A stretch of DNA of 64,000 bases, from NCBI GenBank assembly GCA_937901745.1, contig CALGSZ010000105.1, positions 122,028 to 186,027 of the forward strand, written 5' to 3'. The stretch comes from an uncultured Chloroflexota bacterium (GTDB lineage Bacteria > Chloroflexota > Chloroflexia > Thermomicrobiales > UBA6265). The notes below the pieces were generated by a model. It saw only the letters and a list, made by a program, of their open reading frames with translations, was not told the DNA's origin and did no database searches. A program made the translations under genes and the position numbers. Shown piece after piece: positions 2,551 through 41,422 of the stretch (the stretch's first letter is position 1; each line of letters opens with the position of its first letter).

Positions 2551-4752
<2,202 letters not shown>

Positions 4753-4974
4753 TCCCACGCACGCTCCCCGCGTTTGCCGCAACTCCCCTGGACCATGTTC
4801 TGTCCGGAATCCCACGGAATCCGCATACGCACGATGTATGCCGCACGACTGACACACCTGACGCCGATGTCACCGGCTGGCACGGGGGATGCAGCCCGCT
4901 GTGTACGTCCGAATGTGCCCGAGGTTCGGGCATGGCGAAAGCCGGCGGACGTTGCAATACGGGAGGAAGCGGAT

Positions 4975-5853
4975 ATGGAGCAGCGACTGACACAAGCTCG
5001 AGCACGGCTCCTCGTCCCGGCCGTCGTCCTTGCTCTGGCGCTGGCGTGGCTCGTCAGTCCTTCGCTCGGTGCTCAAGGGACTCCGGAACCGATGGCGGGG
5101 CCATCCTTGCCGGTGGCGATCCACCAAGGCACCTGCGACCAGCCGGTAGCCGAGACGGCGTTCGAGCTTGGCAATGCGATGACGTTTGGACTAGAGGCCG
5201 ATGAAGAGGACGATGAGCCTCAGGCTGACGAGATTCGCGGCACCTCTCCGGATGTGCCGGTCTTGCGAGCGCAAGCCACGATCGACGCGACATTTGACGA
5301 CCTACTCGACCAGCCGCACCTGATCGCGGTGCACGAGAGCACCCAGGCAATGGGGACGATCATCGCCTGCGGCAATCTCGGCGGCGTCGTTGACGACGGA
5401 CGACTCGCGGTCGCCATCCTCCCAACGCAAGAGGGCGGGCCGACCGGCGTCGCCATTCTGGACGAGGACACGGAAGGGATCCTCGGGATCGGTGAGGATC
5501 AAGTCCGGATCGCTGTCTACCTGGTAAGCGCGGGCGCCGCTCCCGGTGCGGCTGCCACGCCCGGCGCCACGACCGGCAACGTGGTCGAGGTCGGGTTGAC
5601 CGAGTTCACGATCGACATGCCCACTAGTCTGCCCGCCGGCCGGACGATCTTCCGGGTGACGAACAACGGCACAGTGGAGCACAACTTCGAGATCGAGGGG
5701 CAGGGGATCGAGGAGGAGTTCGAGGATGACCTCCAGCCCGGCGAGACTCGCGAGATGATCGTCGACCTGCAGCCAGGAACGTATGAGATCTACTGCCCGG
5801 TCGACGACCACGAGGATGAGGGCATGCGCCTCGACCTTACGGTCACTTCGTAA
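4975..5853 (+). CDS. Secreted two-domain copper protein: N-terminal Cu,Zn-SOD/CHRD-like domain plus C-terminal type-1 cupredoxin (paralog of 33756..34601)
   Basis: ATG-4975 follows GGGAGGA. Signal peptide ...LVSPSLGA/QG. N-domain motifs AIHQGTC and IAVHES...IIACGNLGG. C-domain has cupredoxin ligands H (VEHNF) and C-x4-H-x4-M (YCPVDDHEDEGM). The track ORF start at 4069 is an antisense read-through of glgX. Confidence 0.75.
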   Translation: MEQRLTQARARLLVPAVVLALALAWLVSPSLGAQGTPEPMAGPSLPVAIHQGTCDQPVAETAFELGNAMTFGLEADEEDDEPQADEIRGTSPDVPVLRAQATIDATFDDLLDQPHLIAVHESTQAMGTIIACGNLGGVVDDGRLAVAILPTQEGGPTGVAILDEDTEGILGIGEDQVRIAVYLVSAGAAPGAAATPGATTGNVVEVGLTEFTIDMPTSLPAGRTIFRVTNNGTVEHNFEIEGQGIEEEFEDDLQPGETREMIVDLQPGTYEIYCPVDDHEDEGMRLDLTVTS

Positions 5854-10947: not shown

Positions 10948-12381
10948 TTATCCTTTGATGCAGATCTTCGGCCGCAAGTACGCGACGCGGCGCGCCAGAC
11001 CCGCGCGCTCGGTCGCTTCCGCGACCAGGTGGACGTCCTTGTAGGCGCCGGGAGCTTCCTCCGCCGCCCCGCGCAGCGAGCGAGTGCGAATCAGGATGCC
11101 CTGCCGCGCGAGCTCGTCGACGAGCTCGCGCCCCCGCCAGCGCTTCAGCGCCTCATTCCGGCTCATCGCCCGTCCTGCCCCGTGCGAGGCAGAGGAGAAG
11201 GACCGCTCCTCCCCCTCAGGCGTGCCGGCCAAGATGTACGATCCGGTCCCCATGCTCCCGCCGATAATCACCGGTTGCCCGGTGGCGCGATACCGCTCGG
11301 GAATCGCCGGGTGCCCTGGCCCGAATGCGCGCGTCGCTCCCTTGCGATGGACGTAAAGGAGGCGTTCTTCGCCATTGACCCGGTGCCGCTCGGCCTTGCA
11401 CGTGTTGTGAGAGACATCGAAGAGCGTCTCGACTCGGCAGCCGGGGAACACCTGCGTGAAGACCTCGCGGGTCAGCCCGGTCAGGATTTGCCGATTGGCG
11501 AGGGCACAGTTGATCGCGGCGTTCATCGCGCCGAGATAGCGCTGCCCTTCCGGAGAGTAGATCGGGGCGCAGGCTAGTTCGCGATCCGGCAGCTTGATTC
11601 CCAGCCGACTGGCTGCCTTCGCTAACTCCATGAGGTACTCGGTGCCAATCTGGTGCCCGAGTCCGCGCGAGCCGCAGTGGATCGAGACGACGACCTGGCC
11701 GAGCCGCAGCCCGTACGCCGTGGCCGCGGCCTCGTCAAAGATGCGATCGACGATCTGGACCTCCAGGTAGTGGTTACCGGAGCCGAGGGTGCCCATCTCG
11801 CCTTGCTGTCGGCGCTTGGCCAGCGCCGAGACGTTCTCTGGCACGGCGCCTTCCACTCGGCCGTTCTCCTCGACATACTCCAGGTCCTCGGAGCAGCCAT
11901 ATCCCTGGCGGACGGCCCAGACGGCGCCGCCAACAAGGACCTCATCGAGCTGGTCGGGAGTCAGCCGGATATCTCCTTCCTTCCCCACGCCAGCCGGAAT
12001 CGTTCGAAAGAGAGCGTCGGCGAGCGGTTCCATCGCCGGCCGCAGATCGTCGAGCATGAGATTGGTTCGCAGGCAGCGAATGCCGCAGGAGATGTCGAAT
12101 CCGACGCCGCCGGCCGAGACGATGCCGCCCTGCTCGGGATCGAAGGCAGCCACCCCACCGATGGGGAAACCGTAACCCCAGTGCGCGTCGGGCATCGTCA
12201 TCGCCGGTCCGACCAGACCCGGCAACTGGGCAACGTTGGTGATCTGCTCTAGGACCTTGTCGTCCATTGTCCGCAGGAGCTCGGCCGTGCCGTAGAGGAT
12301 TACCGGCGCCCGTTTCTCACCCGGCCGTAGCGGCACTGTCCAGCGATTCTCATCAAGTTGACGAAGCTGAGCCAGGTTCAC
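10948..12381 (-). CDS. rtcB: RNA 3'-phosphate ligase RtcB
   Basis: Motifs GSRGLGHQ, DVSHNTCKAE, GSMGTGSYIL and SASHGAGR. GTG-12381 is preferred (GAGGTG 8 nt upstream; 477 aa) over the track start at 12432, which overlaps archease. Confidence 0.9.
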   Translation of the reverse strand: MNLAQLRQLDENRWTVPLRPGEKRAPVILYGTAELLRTMDDKVLEQITNVAQLPGLVGPAMTMPDAHWGYGFPIGGVAAFDPEQGGIVSAGGVGFDISCGIRCLRTNLMLDDLRPAMEPLADALFRTIPAGVGKEGDIRLTPDQLDEVLVGGAVWAVRQGYGCSEDLEYVEENGRVEGAVPENVSALAKRRQQGEMGTLGSGNHYLEVQIVDRIFDEAAATAYGLRLGQVVVSIHCGSRGLGHQIGTEYLMELAKAASRLGIKLPDRELACAPIYSPEGQRYLGAMNAAINCALANRQILTGLTREVFTQVFPGCRVETLFDVSHNTCKAERHRVNGEERLLYVHRKGATRAFGPGHPAIPERYRATGQPVIIGGSMGTGSYILAGTPEGEERSFSSASHGAGRAMSRNEALKRWRGRELVDELARQGILIRTRSLRGAAEEAPGAYKDVHLVAEATERAGLARRVAYLRPKICIKG

Positions 12382-12401
12382 GGCGGTACACCTCAGTGTT
12401 C

Positions 12402-12896
12402 TCAGACATCGACAACGCAGCGAGCTTCCCAACCCTCAGCGGTTTGCCGCACGGAGAGCATCGTCAGCGTCGCGCCTTTGACCTCGACGCCGCGCTCGAG
12501 CCCTTCCCGCCACGGCTCGCCTCGGGCTTCGCCTATCCAGTGACCGTTCTCCCGGCGGAGGCTGAATTCCCCGAGCACCAGCCCGGAGGCGCGGGCCTCC
12601 GCCAGAAGGGCATTCAGCCAAGTTACCAACGCGAACTCAGGATCGGGCTCGTCGAACTCGATCCGCAACGTGTGTGTCGCGCGGACGGCGCTGCGATCGA
12701 CCATCACGGAGAACATTGCCTCGGCGGCAGCGACGAAGGCCGCCTCGATCGTCGGCCCGCGACCGATGACGCCGACATCGGCGTCATGGCTAAAGTAGGT
12801 CGACTGATCGAGCTCGGCTTGCAAGGAGGGCGCCGAGGAGGGCTCAGGGGATTGCTTGGCGGCCGAAGTCGATTCTGTGTTGGACTCCAGTGTCAT
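12402..12896 (-). CDS. Archease (RtcB activator)
   Basis: 164-aa ORF. Motifs HDADVGVIGRG and VKGATLTMLSV, with an EARCVVDV C-terminus. GGAGGTGGTGC precedes ATG-12896. It lies directly upstream of rtcB. Confidence 0.8.
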   Translation of the reverse strand: MTLESNTESTSAAKQSPEPSSAPSLQAELDQSTYFSHDADVGVIGRGPTIEAAFVAAAEAMFSVMVDRSAVRATHTLRIEFDEPDPEFALVTWLNALLAEARASGLVLGEFSLRRENGHWIGEARGEPWREGLERGVEVKGATLTMLSVRQTAEGWEARCVVDV

Positions 12897-13416
12897 GCAC
12901 CACCTCCACGCTTAGATCCGAGGCCGAGCCTACGATGTCATCGACGCTCTAAGCAACGCCCCTTGCCCGCCGCACCACCGAGGCGACGCGCCCATCTCAA
13001 CATAACGAATATTTCCTCACCATGGACGTGAATCCGACCAGTGTCGCTTCCTCGGCGGCGAACCCGCGACTTCTCCAGAGCTCCCGCACATCGAAACCGA
13101 GAGTGGTAGGTACATGCCGTCCGTGGCAGACGCCGGGCGCTCGCTCATTGCTTTGCGGCAACGTCCTCGACCCTTCCGGCGCGTGCGCGTTGCTGGCCTG
13201 CTCCGGACTCATCTACTCACGAACCAACGCCGGCTGACCCCAGGGCCGGTTCGCCCGGAGTCGGAGACCTATCCCTACCGTACGCCGGTTCAGTCGCACT
13301 CGCGTTCAGAATCGGGGAGATGGCGTGACAAGGTCGTCACAAGTCGGCAGCAAACCGGCCAGTCGATCGCCAGAGGTTTGATGCTTTGAGGCGCGTTGCA
13401 GGCTACCCGCGGCTAC

Positions 13417-33755: not shown

Positions 33756-34601
33756 ATGCACACGAGCCGGCGATACGCGGCGCTGACCGCAGCGCTCGCG
33801 GTGATCATCGCGATGATGGGCATTGCGATCGGCACGGCGTCGCGGACGGCGCGCGCCCAAGGAGAAGAGGCGCACCCGGCACATATCCACTCTGGCACCT
33901 GCGCGACCCTCGGCGATGTCGTCGCTCCATTGAGCTCGATCGGGCCTGAAGGGCTCGTTGACGGCACGCCGTCCGCTGGCGAGACAGCCGGGCCGGAGAG
34001 CGCGATTCCGGTCGAGGTCAGCATCACCACCGTGCCGATGGCGCTGGCCGACATCATCAGCGGCGGTCACGCCATCAATGTCCATGAGAGCGCGGAGAAC
34101 ATCGGCAACTACATCGCCTGCGGCGACATCGGCGGCACACTGATCGGCACCAGCGACCTGGCGATCGGGCTCGCTGAGCTGAACGACTCCGGGCACCACG
34201 GCGTGGCCTGGCTGCACGACAACGGCGATGGCAACACGACCGTCTACGTCTTCCTCGAGGAAGAGTATGGTGAGGGAGACATGGGCGGTGGCGACATGGG
34301 CACGCCGGAGGACATGGGCGATCACGACATGGGTGATTCGGACAGCGCGGGAACCAACGAGGTAGCCGTGTCGATCGCGAACTTCGCCTATGATCCGTCG
34401 CCGCTCGAGATTTCGGTCGGCACGACGGTCACCTGGACGAACATGGACAGCGCGCCGCACACCGTCACCAGCTCCGGCAACTTCCAATCCGGACGCATGG
34501 ATCAGGGTGCGACGTTCCAGCACACCTTCGATACCGCTGGCACGTTCGACTACTTCTGCGAATTCCACTCGAATATGAAGGGACAGGTCATCGTTCAATG
34601 A
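33756..34601 (+). CDS. Secreted two-domain copper protein: N-terminal Cu,Zn-SOD/CHRD-like domain, Asp/Met/Gly linker, C-terminal plastocyanin/amicyanin-like cupredoxin
   Basis: ATG-33756 follows AAGGAGGG. Signal/anchor ends ...TARA/QGE. N-domain motifs HPAHIHSGTC and HAINVHES...YIACGDIGG. C-domain has T1-Cu ligands H (APHTV) and C-x2-H-x2-M (FCEFHSNM). Confidence 0.8.
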   Translation: MHTSRRYAALTAALAVIIAMMGIAIGTASRTARAQGEEAHPAHIHSGTCATLGDVVAPLSSIGPEGLVDGTPSAGETAGPESAIPVEVSITTVPMALADIISGGHAINVHESAENIGNYIACGDIGGTLIGTSDLAIGLAELNDSGHHGVAWLHDNGDGNTTVYVFLEEEYGEGDMGGGDMGTPEDMGDHDMGDSDSAGTNEVAVSIANFAYDPSPLEISVGTTVTWTNMDSAPHTVTSSGNFQSGRMDQGATFQHTFDTAGTFDYFCEFHSNMKGQVIVQ

Positions 34602-34701: not shown

Positions 34702-35160
34702 TCAGGCGTCGCTACGCTCGAAGCGGCCAGACTTATCCAGCGGACGCAATCGAAAGAAGATGAGCGGCGAACTCGCTTCCAGGCCGCGCGAGACCAATCC
34801 CGTCCCATTGAGCGAGATCGTGTGCGCGGCCCGCTGCCGCTCCACGTCGTCGGTTAGCTCCTCGTAGATCGCCTCGACGACGACACATCGCCAAGAGGTT
34901 GGGGCATCAATCTCATCCACTAAGAAGCTAACGAGCGGCTGCTCCCGCATGACGTCGATTTTCCGACCAGGACCACTGAAACCGTAGATGTATTTCCCGT
35001 CGTAGCCATAGTTGATCGGCACGACGTAAGGCCGATCGTTGGTCGAGACGGCAAGGCGGCCGATCTGGTTGCGTTGCAGCACCGCCTCGATCTCTTCCGG
35101 CCCGAGAAGACCAATCACGAAACCACCCTCATAATTCGGCAAGCCACCCTTCACGGTCAT
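34702..35160 (-). CDS. Pyridoxamine 5'-phosphate oxidase-family (FMN-binding split-barrel) protein
   Basis: 152-aa ORF. The pattern IGRLAVSTNDRPYVVPINYGYDGKYIYGFS is typical of the PNPOx-like family. Confidence 0.75.
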   Translation of the reverse strand: MTVKGGLPNYEGGFVIGLLGPEEIEAVLQRNQIGRLAVSTNDRPYVVPINYGYDGKYIYGFSGPGRKIDVMREQPLVSFLVDEIDAPTSWRCVVVEAIYEELTDDVERQRAAHTISLNGTGLVSRGLEASSPLIFFRLRPLDKSGRFERSDA

Positions 35161-35304
35161 GCCATCCGTGCCATGTGGCCATGACCTCTCATATGAGGCA
35201 ACGTCTCTATCTTCCGCTTCGCGGAGTCACGAGACGGTCGCACGTACCTGCTGCTTATTACAAATTCGTCACAGCCAAGAGCCGGCAGGGTCAGGAGCAA
35301 CGAG

Positions 35305-35337
35305 CCAGGGGAGGCGGGGCAGCCCCGCCACCCCTGG
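35305..35337 (-). terminator. Strong GC hairpin downstream of the NnrS-like operon
   Basis: CCAGGGG-A-GGCGGGG-CAG-CCCCGCC-A-CCCCTGG: 14 paired positions with a symmetric A/A mismatch. It begins 16 nt beyond the stop at 35353. Confidence 0.55.
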
Positions 35338-35352
35338 CGCCCACTCCCCCTC

Positions 35353-36588
35353 CTATGCGCTCCGAGGCGCCGGACGCGCCGGCGCCATGATGAGCTGCGC
35401 TCCTGGCCGTCCACTGAACGTACCGGCGACGATAACGGCAAAGAGCGCGAACCCTGCGGCAACCATCGCCTGCGCCGCCAGCAACCAGCCGGTCACATCG
35501 CTGCCAGAAGCGCGCTCGACAAGGGCATACACTCCCAGCGCCACTCCAACGCCAAGTAGCAGCACTTGCAAGCCGGCCAGGCGCGGCCAACGCAGCGGAC
35601 GCCCGGCGAAACGCGGGACGAGGTAATAGCCGACTCCGGAGATGAGGAATCCGGTCCAGCCGAAGAGGTTGAGCTCGGCATGGACTTGGCGCAGCCGGGC
35701 GCCCGTGGCGGGATCGATCGCGAAGATAGCGCCAAGCGCGATCCCGGCCGCGAGACACGCGGCGGCGACGAGGAATGTCGGACGCGACCAGCCAGGCAGC
35801 GCCACGATCTGCGGAGTGATCGTCGCCAAGAAGAGCGCGAGCGCCGCTGCCTGGAGCGGTCCGGCAATGAGGAAGAGTCCCTTCGAGCCGGTGGCGAGCG
35901 CGATGAGCATCACCGGCAGCCCGATGGCGACGACAATTAGGTGCAGACGAATCGGCGCCACCGACCGCCAGCGTCGCCCTGTCCAGCGGCTCAGCACGTG
36001 GTAGCAGACGCCGGACGCCATCGAGAGGAAGAAGCCGACGAGCATCGCGTGCGCCCAGACGATGTCCCAGCGAGCCGTCTCGACGAGATCAGCGGCGATC
36101 AGCAGGCCGATGCCAAGCCCGATCAAGAGATACAGCCCGGAAAGGCGCGTGAACCGGGTGGCGAGCCGGTCAATCGTCGCCTGCTCGGGGAACGGCTGCG
36201 GCGCGGAGTGACCGGTGGCTGGTAGGCGGAAGAGCCGGGCGATATTGACCATGAAGGTCACGCCGCCGGCCAGCGCCAGGACCGCTCCCGCGACCTCGAG
36301 CCAGCGCTCCGCCGCCATACGGCCGAAGAAAACGCCCCAAGCGCCAGCGATTCCCATCGCCACCTGCGCTCGCAGCCAATTGAGGCTCCGCCATTGGCGC
36401 CGCCCGAAAACCGGGATCACGCGGATATTGACCGCGTAGATCATCGGCGTCACGCCGCCGAGCACGGCGAGCGCCACTGCCGCCCGCCACCACGTCGGAT
36501 GCTCCGGCATGCGTCCGACAGTAAGAGCGGCGGCCGCGAAGGCAAGCAGCGAGGCGACCATCGTCGCCGGCACCAGGAGACGCCCCAT
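35353..36588 (-). CDS. NnrS-like polytopic membrane protein (about 12 TM)
   Basis: ATG-36588 lies 4 nt after the upstream stop. Repeated modules WAHAMLVGFFLSMASGVCYHVLSRWTGRRW and VHAELNLFGWTGFLISGVGYYLVPRFAGRPL resemble the H-x-H/E...FG...G...P...GR pattern of NnrS proteins. The family call is tentative. Confidence 0.65.
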   Translation of the reverse strand: MGRLLVPATMVASLLAFAAAALTVGRMPEHPTWWRAAVALAVLGGVTPMIYAVNIRVIPVFGRRQWRSLNWLRAQVAMGIAGAWGVFFGRMAAERWLEVAGAVLALAGGVTFMVNIARLFRLPATGHSAPQPFPEQATIDRLATRFTRLSGLYLLIGLGIGLLIAADLVETARWDIVWAHAMLVGFFLSMASGVCYHVLSRWTGRRWRSVAPIRLHLIVVAIGLPVMLIALATGSKGLFLIAGPLQAAALALFLATITPQIVALPGWSRPTFLVAAACLAAGIALGAIFAIDPATGARLRQVHAELNLFGWTGFLISGVGYYLVPRFAGRPLRWPRLAGLQVLLLGVGVALGVYALVERASGSDVTGWLLAAQAMVAAGFALFAVIVAGTFSGRPGAQLIMAPARPAPRSA

Positions 36589-36592
36589 GACG

Positions 36593-36841
36593 CTACGCTC
36601 CGGCCGCGGACTCAATCGCCGCGAGGACCCGCGGAATCGCGGTCTCGCGATCCACGCCATGCAACTCGAGTGCCTCGCCAAGCCGGTGCGCTCCGCCGCA
36701 GCAGAGATCGATACCGTACGGCGCGAGCGCCTCCAGTGTCGCCGGATACCGTTCGACCAGCTCCCGAATCGTCAGATCGGCGACCGTCTCGGCGGTGATA
36801 GTCGGCGCCTCACCAGCCTGATGCATGCGTCGCAATGCCAT
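36593..36841 (-). CDS. Stand-alone ScdA_N/DUF542-like domain protein (CCGG motif)
   Basis: 82 aa from ATG-36841 (GAGGA upstream; 7 nt after the upstream stop). GIDLCCGGAHRLGEA matches the D-x-CCGG signature of the N-terminal domain of ScdA/YtfE di-iron repair proteins. No hemerythrin domain is present. Confidence 0.65.
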   Translation of the reverse strand: MALRRMHQAGEAPTITAETVADLTIRELVERYPATLEALAPYGIDLCCGGAHRLGEALELHGVDRETAIPRVLAAIESAAGA

Positions 36842-36848
36842 GATGTCC

Positions 36849-37361
36849 TCACATCCTTTCTGCGGCTGGCGGGGCGGCTGGCTCCCGCTCCGCTGCACGC
36901 CGAACCGGCCGGGGCGCGACGCGCGGCCACAACTGCCCGACCACGATTGCCAAAGCGAGCGCCTGCAGCGCTCCCGAACCGACGAGTGTCAGCGACGTCC
37001 AATCCGCGGCATGCCCGGAGCGCTCGACCGGCTCTGCCGCGACACGCGCCAGCAAGCCGAGATTCAGTGCGGCCATCGCGATGAAAGCGGGGCGCTCGCG
37101 ATACCCGAGCGGCAGGGCCGGGCTCCTCCGGCGGGGCAAGAGCCAGTAGGCAACACCGACCGCGAACTGGACGAACCAGCCGACGAAGAGCATGTGCCCG
37201 TGCGTCGGCGCGAGCCAGACGCGCCACGCTCCGGGAATATAGGGATCGGCCATCATTCCCGCGCCCGCCATCGCGCCCGCGAGCAGCCAGATCATCGATG
37301 CTCGCAGCATCCACGCGCTCAGGCGATCCACGTAACCTTCACACGACGCACGAGCAAGCAA
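36849..37361 (-). CDS. Small NnrS-like membrane protein (single module)
   Basis: 170-aa hydrophobic ORF. THGHMLFVGWFVQFAVGVAYWLLPRR repeats the module seen in the 411-aa protein. Start is uncertain (the Met codon at 37361 or the one at 37310). Confidence 0.6.
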   Translation of the reverse strand: MLARASCEGYVDRLSAWMLRASMIWLLAGAMAGAGMMADPYIPGAWRVWLAPTHGHMLFVGWFVQFAVGVAYWLLPRRRSPALPLGYRERPAFIAMAALNLGLLARVAAEPVERSGHAADWTSLTLVGSGALQALALAIVVGQLWPRVAPRPVRRAAEREPAAPPAAERM

Positions 37362-37481
37362 GCAATCGTGCCAGAGGCAATGCTCCGGCTAGCTCTCCAT
37401 CGTCGGCGAACGCGGGATGCAAAGCCGTCACATTTCGCGGCCGGGACGTTACAAAAACGTTGCAAATCGCGGCCGACCGGA

Positions 37482-38423
37482 TCACCAGATCCGATCGAGC
37501 CGCTGCTCCAATTCCACCCCCACTTCTGCGAGCGGGCTCTGCGCGAGCCAGCTGCTGAGGGCGGTCATCTGCCCGGTGAGCAGCAGCACGCCGAGGCCGA
37601 TTAGCAACACGCCACTGACCACCGACGTCGAGTGGGCAAAGGCGTGCACCCGGCCCAGACGAAACTCCCATGCTCGCCCGCGCAGGAGTTGGGCCAGCCG
37701 CCCGCGCGCCTCACCCCGTAGCAGGAGAGAAACGAAGATCAGGATCGGCAACCCGAGTCCAAGGACGTAAACGACGGCGAGCAAGCCGCCAGCCAGCAGC
37801 GAGAGCACTCCCGCGGTCGTCGAGCCCTCTGTGAGCAGGAGCGTCAACACCGATCCGAGAATCGGTCCGACGCAGGTCGTCCACCCCAGCGCGAAGATCA
37901 GGCCGTAGACGTATGCGCCGCCAGCGGTGAATCCGGGCCGGCGAAAGACTCGGAGCCCGGCAAACCCCTTGCCCATCAGGCTCATCACGCCGAAGACGAT
38001 CACGACGATGCCGCCGAACGTGGTGAGGAGCTCTTGGTGATCGAGCACCAGCGAGCCGAGCGTCGTGAACCCCGCGCCGAGCACCGCCATGGTCGTTGCT
38101 ACGCCGGTCAGGAACGCCACGGTCACCACCCCGATCCGCTCCCGGCGCTCTTGTAACGCGACCGAGAAGTAGCCGATCAAGATCGGCAAGGAGCAGGGCG
38201 ACAGCACCGAGAGGATGCCGGCCAGGAACGCCGGCAGCGCCAGAGTCAGCACATCACCGGCCAGCTCCGGCGCGTCTAAGGCGACGCTGAGCAGCGAGAC
38301 GGAGATCAGCAAGACGACTAGCAGCGCCAGGGTGATCGCGAACGAGCGTGCCGCGAGCCGCCACTCTCCTCCTTGGCGATTCGCTCCCAGCGCTGGAGCA
38401 GTGGGCTGGGCTGATGCGCTCAT
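37482..38423 (-). CDS. ccdA: Cytochrome c biogenesis thiol-reductant transporter CcdA (DsbD family)
   Basis: 313-aa multi-TM ORF with the two conserved Cys contexts LSPCSLPIL and TTCVGPILG. It has a 4-nt ATGA overlap with tlpA. Confidence 0.85.
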   Translation of the reverse strand: MSASAQPTAPALGANRQGGEWRLAARSFAITLALLVVLLISVSLLSVALDAPELAGDVLTLALPAFLAGILSVLSPCSLPILIGYFSVALQERRERIGVVTVAFLTGVATTMAVLGAGFTTLGSLVLDHQELLTTFGGIVVIVFGVMSLMGKGFAGLRVFRRPGFTAGGAYVYGLIFALGWTTCVGPILGSVLTLLLTEGSTTAGVLSLLAGGLLAVVYVLGLGLPILIFVSLLLRGEARGRLAQLLRGRAWEFRLGRVHAFAHSTSVVSGVLLIGLGVLLLTGQMTALSSWLAQSPLAEVGVELEQRLDRIW

Positions 38424-38998
38424 CCTGCTTCCCCTCCCACGTCGCCACCGGCGCGAGCGGCGCGGATCAAATCATTCAGCCGATCTTCATCGAGTGGGCC
38501 AAGCACGAAGTCACGCACGATGCCGGACGAATCGAGCGCGACGGTTACCGGCAAGTTCGTCACGCGATAGGCCCGCGTCACCTTTCCGTTGCGGTCCAGC
38601 AAGAGCGGAAACGTGGCGCCGGTCTCCTCGGCCAGGCGCTCAACGGTCTCCGGACCTTCGCGCAGATTGATGCCGATGACGGTGATCTCCTCTGAGTTGG
38701 CCTCATCGAGCAAGGCCATCTCTTCCTTGCAGTTCTCGCACCAGGAAGCGAAGAAGTTGATCAAGAGCGGCTGCCCGAGATGATCGTCGAGCGAAACGGC
38801 CTCCCCGGCCGCGTTCTCCAAGCGGAAATTCGGCGCCCGCTGACCGGGGCGACTTCCCGTCTCCTTATCCCCGTCTGGCCACGAAATCACCCCAAGGCTA
38901 TTGCCGCTGGCGCCGCCGCCACAGCTCGCCAGCAAGATCACCACGGCGAGCGCGCCGGCCAGCGGCATGAAGTTGCGACGCAGCATGCTCCTAGACAC
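38420..38998 (-). CDS. TlpA/ResA-like thiol:disulfide oxidoreductase lipoprotein
   Basis: 192-aa ORF. Lipobox LLASC. Thioredoxin active site FFASWCENCKEE (CxxC). Confidence 0.85.
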   Translation of the reverse strand: MSRSMLRRNFMPLAGALAVVILLASCGGGASGNSLGVISWPDGDKETGSRPGQRAPNFRLENAAGEAVSLDDHLGQPLLINFFASWCENCKEEMALLDEANSEEITVIGINLREGPETVERLAEETGATFPLLLDRNGKVTRAYRVTNLPVTVALDSSGIVRDFVLGPLDEDRLNDLIRAARAGGDVGGEAG

Positions 38999-39001
38999 GC
39001 G

Positions 39002-39457
39002 CTACGCCTCCACGATCACTCGAATCGATTCGGAAGGATCCACCGTACAAGTCACCGGATACTCGCCTGGCTCCGGGAAACGCATCGTGTAGGTTTCGCC
39101 AGGGTTGACGACGAACGGCCCCGCGCGATGGACGACGGTATCCTCGTTGCGAACGGAGATCGCCGCGGTCTCGCCCTTCTTGAACCGGATCAGCGTCGGT
39201 AATGTGATGGCCGATTCCACGCCTGGCTGAGAGAGCCGCGCCGCGCTGCCAGCGGGAATGACGAAGAGGAGCCCGTCCGAATTGCTGGCCGGCTCGCTCC
39301 GCAGCAGATTGATACCCAGCAGCGCCAGCACGACGACGAGCAGCGTTGACGCGGCCGCGATGCCCACGACCGAGCGCTTGCGCTTCGGCTGTCCCGACTG
39401 GCGCGAGATTGCTTGGCGATCGACCAACCCTTGCGCGGTAGTGGTTGGAGTCATCAC
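39002..39457 (-). CDS. Membrane-anchored cupredoxin-like protein with incomplete T1 copper site
   Basis: 151-aa ORF. One TM (VVGIAAASTLLVVVLALLGI). The C-terminal domain FKKGETAAISVRNEDTVVHRAGPFVVNPGETYTMRFPEPGEYPVTCTVDPSESIRVIV follows the cupredoxin spacing but keeps only His and Cys. Its stop is 3 nt from the tlpA start. Confidence 0.6.
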   Translation of the reverse strand: MMTPTTTAQGLVDRQAISRQSGQPKRKRSVVGIAAASTLLVVVLALLGINLLRSEPASNSDGLLFVIPAGSAARLSQPGVESAITLPTLIRFKKGETAAISVRNEDTVVHRAGPFVVNPGETYTMRFPEPGEYPVTCTVDPSESIRVIVEA

Positions 39458-39514
39458 ACACTCCTCACTCGCCGTTGAGAGGGCAGCCCAGCCGCCCTCT
39501 CACCCCGCCAGCCG

Positions 39515-40111
39515 CTACATTCCATGCGTTCCCGGCGTCGCCTCGGGCGTTCCCATGTGCGTGGCCCCGCCCAGAGCGGGCGCCGGGCGCGACCAGACAT
39601 TCGAGATGGTCAAGTCACCCGCGGTGACCGGAGCGACCGGCGTACCCTCGGCTGGCTCAGCGGTGGGGCGCACCTCGACGGTCACCGTCACCTCGCCCGC
39701 CTTCTCGAACTGCAGGGTCAGCTCGTAGCGGTCACCCCGATTGAGATCGCGCGTCAGGCCGATCAGCATGATGTGATAGCCGCGGGGCTTCAGCTCGACC
39801 GTCTCGCCCGCCGGGATCTCCAAGCCATCAGCCAGCGGCCGCATCTCCATGACGCCGTCCTTCTCCGACATCTCATGGATCTCGACGACCGCGGCCACAT
39901 CCGTCTCGCCGCCCAGGAGTCGGTCCGCCTCCTCGCCCTGGTTGGTGATCGTCAGGTACGCCGCGCCCATGCCCGTCGCTGTCGGCGTGCCTGCGCCGGG
40001 CGATGCCTGTGGCGAGGCCTGACCGTGCCCCTCATGCGCGTCGGAGACGCTCGCCCAGCCAACCACGACAAACAGGAGCACAACGATCGTGCCCAAGAGA
40101 GTCCGTCGCAT
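39515..40111 (-). CDS. Periplasmic copper chaperone PCu(A)C (DUF461)
   Basis: 198-aa ORF. Signal peptide. Motif HEMSEKDGVMEM...GYHIM, i.e. the H(M)x10M...HxM Cu(I) motif. Confidence 0.85.
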   Translation of the reverse strand: MRRTLLGTIVVLLFVVVGWASVSDAHEGHGQASPQASPGAGTPTATGMGAAYLTITNQGEEADRLLGGETDVAAVVEIHEMSEKDGVMEMRPLADGLEIPAGETVELKPRGYHIMLIGLTRDLNRGDRYELTLQFEKAGEVTVTVEVRPTAEPAEGTPVAPVTAGDLTISNVWSRPAPALGGATHMGTPEATPGTHGM

Positions 40112-40156
40112 CGGTCTTCCTCCGAGTGAAGTCTTGATCCACGGTTCTCCGCGCCA

Positions 40157-40777
40157 CTAGAGCAAGTGGCGGATGTCTTCGGCGATCAGCTCTGGATCGG
40201 TTCCATGCGCGTAGACGAGGCGCAGGTTCCCTTTCGTGTCGATGACGAAAGTAGAGGTGGTGTGGTCAACGAGGTAGCTCATCGCCGACTCGTCGAATTC
40301 GCGCTTGACCACGGCAACGCCGTAGTCCTGCGTGATCGCCTGGATCTGCTCCGGCGTCCCGGCCAAGCCGATGAACTCCGGATCGAAAAAGGCCAGATAC
40401 TCGCCCAGCCGCTCAGGCGTGTCCCGCTCGGGATCCACTGTTACCATCACGAACCGGACGCGCTCGGCATCCTTTCCAAGCTCTTCCTTGACGGAGATCC
40501 AGTCGCTGAGCGTCGTTGGGCACGCATCCGGACAGGCGGTGTAGCCGAAATAGAGCACGACTACCGCCCCCGCCTGGTCAGCGAGCGAGAATGGCTGACC
40601 ACGCTGATCGGTGAGCTCGATCGGTGCCGCGGCGCGGACCGGCTGAATCTCTCCGCCATGGAAGGCGTAGGATTCGCGATTCCAGAGCATCCACCCCGCG
40701 ACCAGCGCGATCGTGGCCACCGCGATTGCCGAGCCGAGCGCAATGAACTTTGCGCGACGAGACATGACGTCGCTCAC
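40157..40777 (-). CDS. SCO1/SenC copper chaperone
   Basis: 206-aa ORF. N-terminal TM, CxxxC motif YTACPDACP, and conserved downstream His (VDHTTSTFVID). Confidence 0.9.
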   Translation of the reverse strand: MSDVMSRRAKFIALGSAIAVATIALVAGWMLWNRESYAFHGGEIQPVRAAAPIELTDQRGQPFSLADQAGAVVVLYFGYTACPDACPTTLSDWISVKEELGKDAERVRFVMVTVDPERDTPERLGEYLAFFDPEFIGLAGTPEQIQAITQDYGVAVVKREFDESAMSYLVDHTTSTFVIDTKGNLRLVYAHGTDPELIAEDIRHLL

Positions 40778-40837: not shown

Positions 40838-41422
40838 CTATGAAATGGAATGTGTCCGGGGTGGGGGACTGTTCGGCGCGATCGCGCGACCGTGCAGGCG
40901 GTCGCCGGGCTCGAGCACCGGAGTCTCAGAAACATTCAGGATCACGGGGGTCTCAACCGGCAGATCCGCCGCGAGCGTGAGAACGGTCATCGCCGGATGC
41001 GGAATCTGATTGACTCGCGCCGTCTGCTCAGGGCACAGCTCGACCGGACCAGGGACGCCACCCGTCGCGGACCGCGTGCCCTGCTCCTCCGGCGCGCCCT
41101 GCGCATCGTCCTCCACGGTCGGCGAGAACGCATGACTGAGGTGCTCGTAGTGAAGACCGAAGTGTGCGAGCGCGTGCGCCGAGTCAGTGACAGAGCTGTC
41201 TTCGGTCACCGACGCGGTGAATTCCACCTCGTAGCCACCAGACGAAGGCGAGCCACTTGGAGAAAGGTAGAGGGAGTGCGGGCCTGATGTCGCTGAGCAG
41301 GTCGCCGGGACGGACAAGAGCCCGATCAGCATCGCGACGGTGATCAGCCGGCGCGCGACGCTGATGAAGCCGGAAGAGCGCCAGTGCATCGCGATGGATC
41401 TTGATCTCCGGGCGCGGATCAT
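40838..41422 (-). CDS. Hypothetical membrane-anchored protein with His cluster (first gene of the copper operon)
   Basis: 194-aa ORF. ATG-41422 follows GAGAGGG. N-terminal hydrophobic anchor. His cluster HALAHFGLHYEHLSH. I recognise no family. Confidence 0.55.
   Translation of the reverse strand: MIRARRSRSIAMHWRSSGFISVARRLITVAMLIGLLSVPATCSATSGPHSLYLSPSGSPSSGGYEVEFTASVTEDSSVTDSAHALAHFGLHYEHLSHAFSPTVEDDAQGAPEEQGTRSATGGVPGPVELCPEQTARVNQIPHPAMTVLTLAADLPVETPVILNVSETPVLEPGDRLHGRAIAPNSPPPRTHSIS

What the first reader, a model, noticed from the sequence alone, without database searches (positions are those of the whole stretch)
35353..37361. Tightly packed three-gene operon: mini NnrS-like protein, stand-alone ScdA_N (CCGG) domain, 12-TM NnrS-like protein
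Seen in the sequence:
- The three minus-strand genes are separated by only 7 nt and 4 nt (stop 36849 to ATG 36841; stop 36593 to ATG 36588).
- A strong hairpin terminator follows at 35305-35337.
- The 170-aa and 411-aa membrane proteins share a repeated module: THGHMLFVGWF...GVAYWLLPRR, WAHAMLVGFF...SRWTGRRW and VHAELNLFGWT...YYLVPRFAGRPL.
- The middle 82-aa protein carries GIDLCCGG, the signature of the N-terminal domain of ScdA/YtfE repair-of-iron-centre proteins, but it has no hemerythrin-like di-iron domain.

Established knowledge: NnrS and YtfE/ScdA are both linked to nitric-oxide and iron-centre damage responses.

Inference: this is a membrane-associated nitrosative or iron-stress module in which the Cys-rich ScdA_N domain works with NnrS-like partners rather than with its usual di-iron domain. 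I do not know this split arrangement as characterised.
Basis: partly seen in the sequence, partly recalled or inferred. Interest (0 to 1): 0.55.

Follow-up and report, generated by a model that had tools for sequence, protein, structure and literature searches.

The report
Split NnrS-like membrane complex with ScdA_N
Three tightly packed genes in a Thermomicrobiales genome encode an uncharacterised membrane metalloprotein related to NnrS and to cytochrome-oxidase subunit I, split into a 4-helix and a 12-helix piece, plus a small cytoplasmic cysteine-pair protein; in related genomes the set sits next to copper nitrite reductase, which suggests but does not prove a role in handling nitric oxide.

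Summary
Three minus-strand genes are separated by 7 and 4 nt and followed by a strong hairpin. A is about 160 aa (4 TM), B is 82 aa, C is 411 aa (12 TM).

- B passes the Pfam ScdA_N threshold, keeps an invariant D-x-CCGG motif and has no di-iron domain.
- C is modelled with high confidence as 12 TM helices. Its best structural matches are haem-copper oxidase subunit I.
- C and A fall below the Pfam cut-offs for NnrS and COX1. Profile-profile comparison still ties both to NnrS-type domains (97%). A matches NnrS module 1, including its HGH motif, which C has lost.
- C lacks the canonical oxidase histidine set.

In 38 species-level Thermomicrobiales loci with full flanks, 37 keep A or B beside C, in shuffled orders (A-B-C, B-A-C, B-C-A). 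Other Chloroflexota fuse ScdA_N/DUF1858 domains to NnrS. NirK-like genes accompany only the loci that have B. In the window the neighbours are copper chaperones and cupredoxins.

Verdict: a real, conserved, uncharacterised variant of the NnrS kind, probably linked to nitrite/NO. The mechanism is inferred, not shown.

The parts
37420..37475 (-). Two 24-nt direct repeats 32 nt apart, inside the 150-nt gap upstream of gene A. Candidate operator or promoter region for a separate A-B-C transcript.
   Evidence: the repeat finder. Partly conserved in the orthologous gaps of L007 and L008. No sigma-70 consensus found.
36849..37331 (-). Gene A: 4-TM membrane protein, 160 aa from GTG 37331 (170 aa from TTG 37361, 148 aa from ATG 37295). 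Carries the invariant motif T-H-G-H-M-L-F-V-G-W. It is a stand-alone copy of the NnrS/oxidase 4-helix module.
   Evidence: alignment and start. (homology to C module 2). (97.1% to NnrS module 1, HGH aligned to HGH). (four helices, pLDDT 76.6). (both His 41/41).
36593..36841 (-). Gene B: 82-aa soluble, acidic ScdA_N (DUF542) protein with invariant D-x-CCGG. No di-iron domain.
   Evidence: Pfam ScdA_N 39.4 bits, above the 32.5 cut-off. RIC models matched only over positions 1-48. 41 orthologues aligned. NCBI names an identical protein 'DUF542 domain-containing protein'.
35353..36588 (-). Gene C: 411-aa, 12-TM protein with the fold of haem-copper oxidase subunit I. It is a remote homologue of NnrS. 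Conserved H180, Y196, H197, H216, H303, N307 and M227.
   Evidence: AF2 pLDDT 92.5 with 12 helices. Foldseek top 50 are all oxidase subunit I or NorB, TM-score 0.71-0.73 to cbb3 CcoN. hhalign to NnrS domains 97.3%. Conservation.
35293..35348 (-). GC-rich stem-loop starting 5 nt after the stop codon of C. Probable transcript end, with no U-tract.
   Evidence: strand folding: -45.7 kcal/mol, z = -4.3. Not listed by the consensus terminator scan.
37482..40777 (-). Upstream same-strand copper and thiol maturation genes: Sco1/SenC (40157-40777), PCuAC (39515-40111), degenerate cupredoxin-like 151-aa protein (39002-39457), TlpA-like redoxin (38420-38998), DsbD/CcdA-like 313-aa membrane protein (37482-38423).
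   Evidence: Pfam and NCBIfam. The same block precedes A-B-C in L004-L008, and precedes PNPOx-NirK-cupredoxin-B-C in L050.
34702..35160 (-). Downstream PNPOx-like (Pyridox_ox_2, Nim-like) 152-aa protein. A recurrent neighbour of the module.
   Evidence: Pfam 67.8 bits. Weak NimABCDEF hit. Also present in L001, L007, L008, L048 and L050.
33756..34601 (+). Convergent blue-copper (amicyanin/plastocyanin-type) protein. Possible extracytoplasmic electron carrier.
   Evidence: Cupredoxin_1 and Copper-bind hits. Amicyanin and halocyanin models. Conserved neighbour in many loci.

Best explanation
A, B and C together form a Thermomicrobiales-specific membrane metalloprotein module of the NnrS / haem-copper-oxidase-subunit-I superfamily.

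What each part is:
- C is the 12-helix core. Its first 4-helix module has lost the HGH motif. It also lacks the canonical CuB and low-spin-haem histidines.
- A is a separately encoded 4-helix module that keeps HGH. It probably supplies that metal or haem site in trans on the outer side of the membrane.
- B is a small, acidic, cytoplasmic ScdA_N protein. Its invariant Cys-Cys pair probably docks on the very basic cytoplasmic loops of C, near the conserved inner-side residues Y196, H197 and H216. There it would act as a thiol redox relay or NO gate, as proposed for the same domain in YtfE.

What the module most likely does: it serves extracytoplasmic copper enzymes, above all NirK and its cupredoxin. 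It would limit damage from the NO that NirK makes, in the manner of NnrS.

Shown: gene structure, domain identities, fold, remote homology, conserved residues, synteny, fusions, and the association with NirK.

Inferred: that the three proteins form a physical complex, which cofactors they bind, the direction of electron or NO flow, and the physiological role.
For: Domains and fold:
- ScdA_N passes its Pfam threshold.
- C has a 12-TM oxidase-like fold at pLDDT 92.5.
- C and A are homologous to NnrS domains at 97%. A is homologous to a module of C.

Histidines:
- HGH is present in A (41/41) and deleted from C module 1.
- H180 and H303 lie toward the outer ends of TM6 and TM10. H197 and H216 lie at the inner ends of TM6 and TM7.
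- Loop charges give an N-in topology: 17 K+R on the inner side against 7 on the outer side.
- B has net charge about -5. The cytoplasmic loops of C read GRRQWR, TGRRWR and GRPLRWPR.

Linkage:
- 37 of 38 full-flank species-level loci keep A or B next to C, and 22 keep both. Three different gene orders occur.
- [ScdA_N]-NnrS-DUF1858 fusions occur in at least 100 clusters.

NO and nitrite link:
- NirK-like genes with intact ligand motifs and Tat signals sit directly upstream in 14 of 28 loci that have B, and in 0 of 10 loci that lack B (p = 0.006).
- nnrS and dnrN/ytfE are core members of NO regulons (PMC1274295).
- A DUF1858 gene beside nnrR, itself adjacent to nnrS, and close to nirK is strongly NnrR-dependent in Bradyrhizobium (PMC6710368).
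- The Cys30/Cys31 pair of ScdA_N is proposed as an electron relay and as the cap of a hydrophobic NO channel (PMC9052748).

Copper link: Sco1, PCuAC, TlpA-like and CcdA-like genes lie directly upstream in the window and in L004-L008 and L050.
Against: - There is no experimental or expression data for any member.
- The 64-kb window holds no NirK gene.
- B is absent from 10 of 38 full-flank loci and A from 7 of 38, so neither is strictly required.
- C and A fail the Pfam NnrS and COX1 gathering scores.
- The function of NnrS itself is unresolved (PMC3345576), so 'NnrS-like' transfers little mechanism.
- I had no access to model coordinates. Histidine positions are inferred from helix boundaries, not from measured distances.
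- No complex model could be made.
Confidence: 0.5

Rival explanations
1. Electron conduit or membrane anchor. A/C would be a haem-b membrane module that passes electrons from menaquinol or a cytoplasmic donor (B, the PNPOx-like flavoprotein) to the cupredoxin and then to NirK or the two-domain multicopper oxidase. It would feed electrons to these enzymes rather than protect against NO.
For: - Conserved histidines sit at two membrane depths: H180/H303 on the outer side and H197/H216 on the inner side, with H180 and H197 17 residues apart on TM6. This resembles di-haem transmembrane cytochromes (own knowledge).
- Fused NnrS relatives sit directly after the alpha and beta genes of type II DMSO-reductase-family enzymes, where a membrane or haem subunit is expected.
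- Cupredoxin genes flank the module.
- Loci without B accompany another copper oxidoreductase.
Against: - Haem binding is not shown, and no quinone site has been identified.
- NirK is normally served by soluble or anchored carriers downstream of bc1 or ACIII (own knowledge).
- The strict link between B and NirK, but not the laccase-like oxidase, fits an NO-specific role better.
- The neighbourhood of the fused proteins was examined in only two loci.
Confidence: 0.25
2. A new, divergent nitric oxide reductase of the haem-copper oxidase superfamily that removes the NO made by the neighbouring NirK.
For: Oxidase and NorB fold. A TM10 histidine that the weak CcoN-model match (ccoN model positions 342-396) places in the helix X region. 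A NirK gene directly upstream in many relatives.
Against: - There is no invariant His in TM2 and no His pair at the outer end of TM7. The three-His metal site and the low-spin haem ligands that define every known NOR and oxidase are therefore missing.
- No cytochrome c or subunit II partner gene was annotated in the neighbourhoods inspected.
- The closer sequence relatives are NnrS domains. NnrS has not been shown to reduce NO (PMC3345576).
Confidence: 0.08
3. A biogenesis factor: a membrane protein that handles copper or haem for the assembly of cupredoxins, NirK or a terminal oxidase, working with the upstream Sco1, PCuAC, TlpA-like and CcdA-like genes.
For: Same-strand adjacency to a full copper-chaperone block in the window, in L004-L008 and in L050. 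HGH is a plausible copper-binding motif (own knowledge).
Against: Most relatives lack the chaperone block beside the module. The conserved gap with repeats suggests a separate promoter. A 12-TM oxidase-like fold is not known as a metallochaperone. The cytoplasmic ScdA_N partner is left unexplained.
Confidence: 0.1

Closest known systems
NnrS (Pfam PF05940; Rhodobacter sphaeroides and Vibrio cholerae NnrS)
   Same: 12-TM membrane protein. Remote but significant homology over about 350 residues. The repeated 4-helix module with an H-G-H ... G ... P-R-F motif is shared, and the TM10 histidine is shared. Genomic association with nirK and with NO regulons.
   Different: Below the Pfam threshold. 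The HGH-bearing module sits on a separate 4-TM protein, while module 1 of the 12-TM protein has lost it. Extra conserved H180, H197 and H216. An obligatorily adjacent ScdA_N gene in most loci. Found only in Thermomicrobiales and related Chloroflexota MAGs.
Haem-copper oxidase subunit I / NorB (PF00115; cbb3 CcoN 3mk7, NorB 4xyd)
   Same: Overall 12-helix fold, TM-score 0.71-0.73. Weak COX1 HMM hits at 34.2 bits. N-in topology.
   Different: No sequence match to PDB oxidases or to E. coli CyoB. The six canonical histidines are not all present. No subunit II or cytochrome c partner.
YtfE / ScdA / DnrN repair-of-iron-centres (RIC) proteins
   Same: B is the ScdA_N domain with the conserved Cys-Cys pair.
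   Different: No hemerythrin-like di-iron domain, so it cannot carry out RIC chemistry by itself. Its genomic partner is a membrane protein instead.
Fused [ScdA_N-like]-NnrS-DUF1858-[FeS_assembly_P] proteins of Dehalococcoidia, other Chloroflexota and Armatimonadota ('DUF1858 domain-containing protein', 'uncharacterized protein involved in response to NO')
   Same: They combine the same two domain types in one chain. The membrane domain is homologous to C and A.
   Different: They are a single polypeptide with HGH in module 1. The N-terminal domain has GCGG rather than CCGG in the example read. They follow type II DMSO-reductase-family genes rather than NirK. They are also uncharacterised.
Bradyrhizobium diazoefficiens bsl7085 (stand-alone DUF1858 protein beside nnrR/nnrS, near nirK)
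   Same: A small stand-alone protein of the ScdA_N/DUF1858 type, encoded next to nnrS-type and nirK genes. Strongly induced through NnrR.
   Different: DUF1858 rather than ScdA_N. Not in a tight operon with the membrane protein. Canonical NnrS. Proteobacterial.

Membership tests
ScdA_N / DUF542 (PF04405) | Score above the Pfam gathering threshold | tested here: met
   39.4 bits against 32.5, residues 23-68.
ScdA_N / DUF542 (PF04405) | Conserved adjacent Cys-Cys pair (Cys30/Cys31 of YtfE) | tested here: met
   D-x-CCGG present in at least 90% of 41 orthologues. Role of the pair taken from PMC9052748.
RIC proteins (YtfE/ScdA; TIGR03652) | C-terminal hemerythrin-like di-iron domain | tested here: not met
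   B is 82 aa. Only positions 1-48 of the 216-position model match, at 30.9 bits against a cut-off of 204.7.
NnrS (PF05940) | Score above the Pfam gathering threshold | tested here: not met
   C scores 14.8 bits against 28. A gives no hit. Only a few homologues carry a precomputed PF05940 hit.
NnrS (PF05940) | Homology to NnrS membrane domains over the whole 12-TM region | tested here: met
   hhalign of the C family against the NnrS-fusion family: 97.3%, E = 1.7e-11, 346 columns. A family against NnrS module 1: 97.1%.
NnrS (PF05940) | H-G-H motif in the second helix of the 12-TM protein | tested here: not met
   C has a 4-residue gap at that position. The motif is instead on the separate protein A. 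This feature is taken from the fused NnrS family aligned here, not from a curated definition.
NnrS (PF05940) | Haem and copper content; NO-responsive expression | not testable with these tools
   Reported for R. sphaeroides and Vibrio NnrS (cited in PMC3345576; PMC1274295). This needs biochemistry or transcriptomics.
Haem-copper oxidase subunit I (PF00115) | 12-helix subunit I fold | tested here: met
   Foldseek against PDB: the top 50 are all subunit I or NorB. Best is 3mk7 CcoN, TM-score 0.71-0.73, E about 1e-6.
Haem-copper oxidase subunit I (PF00115) | Score above the Pfam gathering threshold | tested here: not met
   C scores 34.2 against 34.8, on residues 272-387 only. A scores 19.4. No hit to PDB oxidase sequences or to CyoB.
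Haem-copper oxidase subunit I (PF00115) | Six canonical histidines (one in TM2, one in TM6, two in TM7, two in TM10) | tested here: not met
   The invariant histidines are H180 (TM6), H197 (TM6, inner end), H216 (TM7, inner end) and H303 (TM10). There is none in TM2, no pair at the outer end of TM7, and only one in TM10. Positions come from predicted helix limits, not from a superposition.
Haem-copper oxidase / NOR operon | Adjacent subunit II or cytochrome c partner gene | tested here: not met
   None is annotated in the window neighbourhood or in the neighbourhoods of L001-L007.

The most novel reading that the evidence does not exclude
A+B+C is a previously unrecognised type of NirK-coupled membrane enzyme. 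It would be a split relative of the haem-copper oxidases without a CuB site. A stand-alone ScdA_N dithiol protein would act as cytoplasmic reductant or NO acceptor, so that NO is reduced, trapped or trans-nitrosated at the membrane. If so, it would give the first mechanistic handle on both NnrS and the ScdA_N domain.
Probability: 0.12. Interest if true: 0.8.

Novelty: new variant of a known kind. Interest (0 to 1): 0.55.

Why it matters
NnrS and the ScdA_N domain of YtfE/ScdA are recurrent members of bacterial NO regulons, and their molecular roles remain unsettled.

This module shows the two encoded side by side, reshuffled but kept together across a whole order. In other lineages they are fused. 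That argues for a direct physical partnership.

Two comparisons are readily testable. The first is the split of the HGH-bearing module onto a separate small protein. The second is the all-or-none association of the ScdA_N gene with NirK: loci with B against loci without it, and NirK neighbours against laccase-like oxidase neighbours.

The module also marks an unstudied component of nitrite metabolism in soil Thermomicrobiales.

Tried and rejected
- **Sequence search of the C profile against all PDB chains:** no hit even at E = 10.
- **hhalign of the C family against E. coli CyoB:** nothing (0.1%). Histidines could therefore not be mapped residue by residue onto an oxidase.
- **AFDB Foldseek library:** not available, so I could not check whether AlphaFold NnrS models are closer than oxidases.
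- **Model of A alone:** only moderate confidence (pLDDT 76.6). Its Foldseek matches are generic helix bundles with E of 1 or more, which is uninformative.
- **Linker-fused A+C model with a paired alignment:** I prepared 38 pairs but did not submit them.
- **Other scans:** the sigma-70 promoter scan found nothing. Rfam found nothing in the window.
- **NirK in the window:** looked for and absent.
- **Chance adjacency:** rejected on the synteny counts.
- **Canonical NOR or oxidase:** rejected on the missing histidine set.
- **A RIC protein:** rejected on the missing di-iron domain.
- **Repeat-like site upstream of archease-RtcB:** statistically weak (7 of 100 shuffles), so I make no regulon claim.
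Full report
**1. Observation**

The region holds three minus-strand genes. Gene C runs from ATG 36588 to the stop at 35353 (411 aa). Gene B runs from ATG 36841 to the stop at 36593 (82 aa). Gene A ends at 36849.

The start of A needs correcting. Homologues begin MDRLS..., which aligns with GTG 37331. That codon has GAAGG four bases upstream and is conserved in two orthologous loci. A is therefore most likely 160 aa, not 170. Automated callers elsewhere chose ATG 37295, giving 148 aa.

Five bases after the stop of C, a GC-rich stem-loop spans 35293-35348, with its core at 35304-35338. It folds at -45.7 kcal/mol, z = -4.3. It has no U-tract, so the consensus terminator scan misses it.

**2. The small protein B**

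B passes the Pfam ScdA_N threshold (39.4 against 32.5 bits). It matches the RIC/YtfE models only over their first 48 positions. It has the ScdA_N domain and nothing else.

In 41 orthologues taken from related loci, the D-x-CCGG motif is invariant and a downstream His is conserved. B is acidic: 12 D+E against 7 K+R. NCBI names an identical protein 'DUF542 domain-containing protein'. A and C are named 'hypothetical protein' in a Thermomicrobiales MAG.

**3. The membrane proteins A and C**

Pfam gives only sub-threshold hits:

| Protein | Family | Score (bits) | Cut-off (bits) |
|---|---|---|---|
| C | COX1 | 34.2 | 34.8 |
| C | NnrS | 14.8 | 28 |
| A | COX1 | 19.4 | 34.8 |

An AlphaFold2 model of C, built on 42 homologues, is confident (pLDDT 92.5, pTM 0.90) and has 12 transmembrane helices. 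All of the 50 best Foldseek matches in the PDB are haem-copper oxidase subunit I or NorB. The best is cbb3 CcoN, with TM-score 0.71-0.73. At sequence level nothing in the PDB matches, and E. coli CyoB does not align.

The A family aligns to residues 135-264 of the C family at 93.7% hhalign probability (E = 1.8e-7, 28% identity).

An exhaustive profile search found only about a dozen close full-length cluster representatives. It also found a wider set of 4-, 8- and 12-TM relatives built from the same module, 630 representatives at E < 1e-3. Some of these carry H-x-H in all three modules, for example P0266.

**4. Relation to NnrS**

One distant hit, P0364, is a 710-aa protein combining a weak ScdA_N match, NnrS (50 bits), DUF1858 and FeS_assembly_P. 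Searching with it returned at least 100 clusters with this architecture. They come from Dehalococcoidia, other Chloroflexota and an Armatimonadota genome. Several are named 'DUF1858 domain-containing protein' or 'uncharacterized protein involved in response to NO'.

Against an alignment of 20 of these proteins:
- The C family aligns in register over 346 columns at 97.3% (E = 1.7e-11).
- The A family aligns to the first NnrS module at 97.1%, with HGH on HGH.
- C has a gap exactly where NnrS module 1 has HGH.

The most economical reading is that the HGH-bearing module has moved to a separate polypeptide.

**5. Conserved residues and topology**

Across 58 C sequences, down to 38% identity:

| Residue | Conservation |
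|---|---|
| H180, Y196, H197, R201, W202 | 57/57 |
| H303, N307, M227 | 58/58 |
| H216 | 55/58 |

In A, both histidines of HGH are 41/41 and E100 is 42/42 (160-aa numbering).

Loop charges support an N-in topology like that of oxidases: 17 K+R on the predicted inner side against 7 on the outer side.

With the predicted helix limits, H180 (TM6) and H303 (TM10) lie toward the outer side. H197 (TM6) and H216 (TM7) lie at the cytoplasmic ends. There is no invariant His in TM2, no His pair at the outer end of TM7, and only one His in TM10.

The six-histidine signature of oxidases and NO reductases is therefore not present. I could not measure distances, because model coordinates are not exposed. 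These placements are inferences from helix boundaries.

**6. Synteny**

A scan of one genome per species found 55 loci. All are from Thermomicrobiales, Sphaerobacteraceae or other Chloroflexota MAGs. I searched their six-frame ORFs with the window proteins.

Among the 38 loci with adequate flanks:
- 37 have A or B beside C, and 22 have both.
- A is present in 31 and B in 28.
- Gene orders are A-B-C (13), B-A-C (4), B-C-A (5), A-C (9) and B-C (6).

Retention through such reshuffling is good evidence of a functional unit. The fusions in section 4 add Rosetta-stone evidence for a partnership between ScdA_N/DUF1858 domains and NnrS.

**7. Neighbourhood**

In the window and its close relatives (L004-L008), the module follows a same-strand block after a 150-nt gap. 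The block is Sco1/SenC, PCuAC, a degenerate cupredoxin-like protein, a TlpA-like redoxin and a DsbD/CcdA-like protein. The module is followed by a PNPOx/Nim-like protein and a convergent blue-copper protein.

In more distant relatives the module follows a NirK-like gene and a small cupredoxin. These NirK-like proteins:
- align over their full length to the copper nitrite reductase model at about 170-175 bits, below the equivalog cut-off of 296;
- carry the HSLDFH and YHC...H...M ligand motifs;
- carry a twin-arginine signal.

L050 joins both contexts: Sco1, PCuAC, cupredoxin-like, TlpA, CcdA, PNPOx, NirK, cupredoxin, B, C.

NirK-like genes occur in 14 of 28 loci that have B and in 0 of 10 that lack B (Fisher p = 0.006). 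Seven of the 10 B-less loci carry instead a two-domain laccase-like multicopper oxidase (p = 1e-5). In L042 this oxidase comes with a GAF-HisKA_3 kinase, a NarL-type regulator and a Usp protein.

The window itself has no NirK gene.

**8. Mechanism**

From the literature:
- nnrS and dnrN/ytfE are core members of NO-responsive regulons (PMC1274295).
- NnrS is reported as a haem- and copper-containing membrane protein. It aids NO resistance in Vibrio, but its function is unresolved (PMC3345576).
- The ScdA_N Cys pair caps a hydrophobic channel and is proposed as an electron relay (PMC9052748).
- A stand-alone DUF1858 gene beside nnrR, itself adjacent to nnrS, and close to nirK is strongly NnrR-dependent in Bradyrhizobium (PMC6710368).

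Combining this with the anatomy, my best explanation is a split NnrS-type metalloprotein (A+C) with a cytoplasmic dithiol partner (B). It would serve the NirK-cupredoxin system by limiting NO damage at the membrane.

The main rival is a pure electron-conduit or anchor role. It is favoured by histidines at two membrane depths. It is also favoured by the fused relatives that sit where a membrane subunit of type II DMSO-reductase-family enzymes is expected.

A new NO reductase is unlikely because the catalytic histidine set is missing. A copper-biogenesis role is possible but does not explain B or the many loci that lack chaperone genes.

**9. Regulation (side observation)**

The 150-nt gap upstream of A holds two 24-nt direct repeats 32 nt apart, at 37420-37475. 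They are partly conserved in L007 and L008. This suggests a separate regulated promoter for A-B-C.

**10. Verdict**

The finding is real, conserved and uncharacterised. It is a new variant of a known kind: the NnrS superfamily, with a partner domain already known from RIC proteins. It is not categorically new.

Its value lies in tying two long-unexplained NO-regulon families together and in offering clean experimental contrasts. Interest 0.55.

Noticed in passing
window 37420-37475 (minus strand): Two 24-nt direct repeats 32 nt apart (CGGCCGCGATTTGCAACGTTTTTG and CGGCCGCGAAATGTGACGGCTTTG) in the gap upstream of gene A. Each holds a pair of TTTGYAAC-like half-sites about 11 nt apart. They are partly conserved in L007 and L008.
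   Followed up: partly
window 13324-13342 (minus strand): TTGTGACGACCTTGTCACG resembles the half-site pair and lies upstream of an archease (12402-12896) and RtcB (10948-12432) operon. Statistics are weak: 7 of 100 shuffles give two or more matches.
   Followed up: partly
window 4030-5853 (+): A 607-aa ORF with a C-terminal cupredoxin-like domain and no other Pfam match. It is another copper-protein candidate far from the cluster.
   Followed up: no
L063 3066-9115; L064 3058-9115: Fused ScdA_N-like/NnrS/DUF1858/FeS_assembly_P proteins (704 aa) directly follow the alpha and beta subunit genes of a type II DMSO-reductase-family enzyme. This is where a membrane or haem subunit is expected. NosD/F/Y-like genes lie upstream in L064.
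   Followed up: partly
L008-L062 (38 loci with full flanks): The ScdA_N gene and NirK-like genes go together: 14 of 28 loci with B against 0 of 10 without (p = 0.006). Loci without B carry a two-domain laccase-like multicopper oxidase instead (7 of 10).
   Followed up: yes
L042 3233-7498: In a B-less locus, the multicopper oxidase and the A-C pair are preceded by a GAF-HisKA_3 sensor kinase (best matches NarQ/NarX) and a NarL/LuxR-type response regulator. A universal stress protein gene lies between them. Usp genes also surround the module in L001.
   Followed up: partly
L010 5436-7958 (also L013, L059): An 840-aa flavin amine-oxidase-like gene is inserted between B and C, splitting the otherwise tight module.
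   Followed up: partly
window 39002-39457 (minus strand): The 151-aa cupredoxin-like protein inside the copper-chaperone block has only one His and one Cys, so it lacks a full type 1 copper ligand set. It is conserved in L004-L008 and L050.
   Followed up: no
window 40838-41422 (minus strand): A 194-aa protein with no Pfam or NCBIfam match heads the Sco1-PCuAC block. It is conserved in L004-L008.
   Followed up: no
P0266 (413 aa, from the representatives search): A distant 12-TM relative keeps H-x-H plus G-W ... Y ... P-x-F-S-G-R/K in all three 4-helix modules and passes the Pfam COX1 threshold (92 bits). It looks like a symmetric, possibly ancestral-type form linking NnrS-like and oxidase-like proteins.
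   Followed up: no
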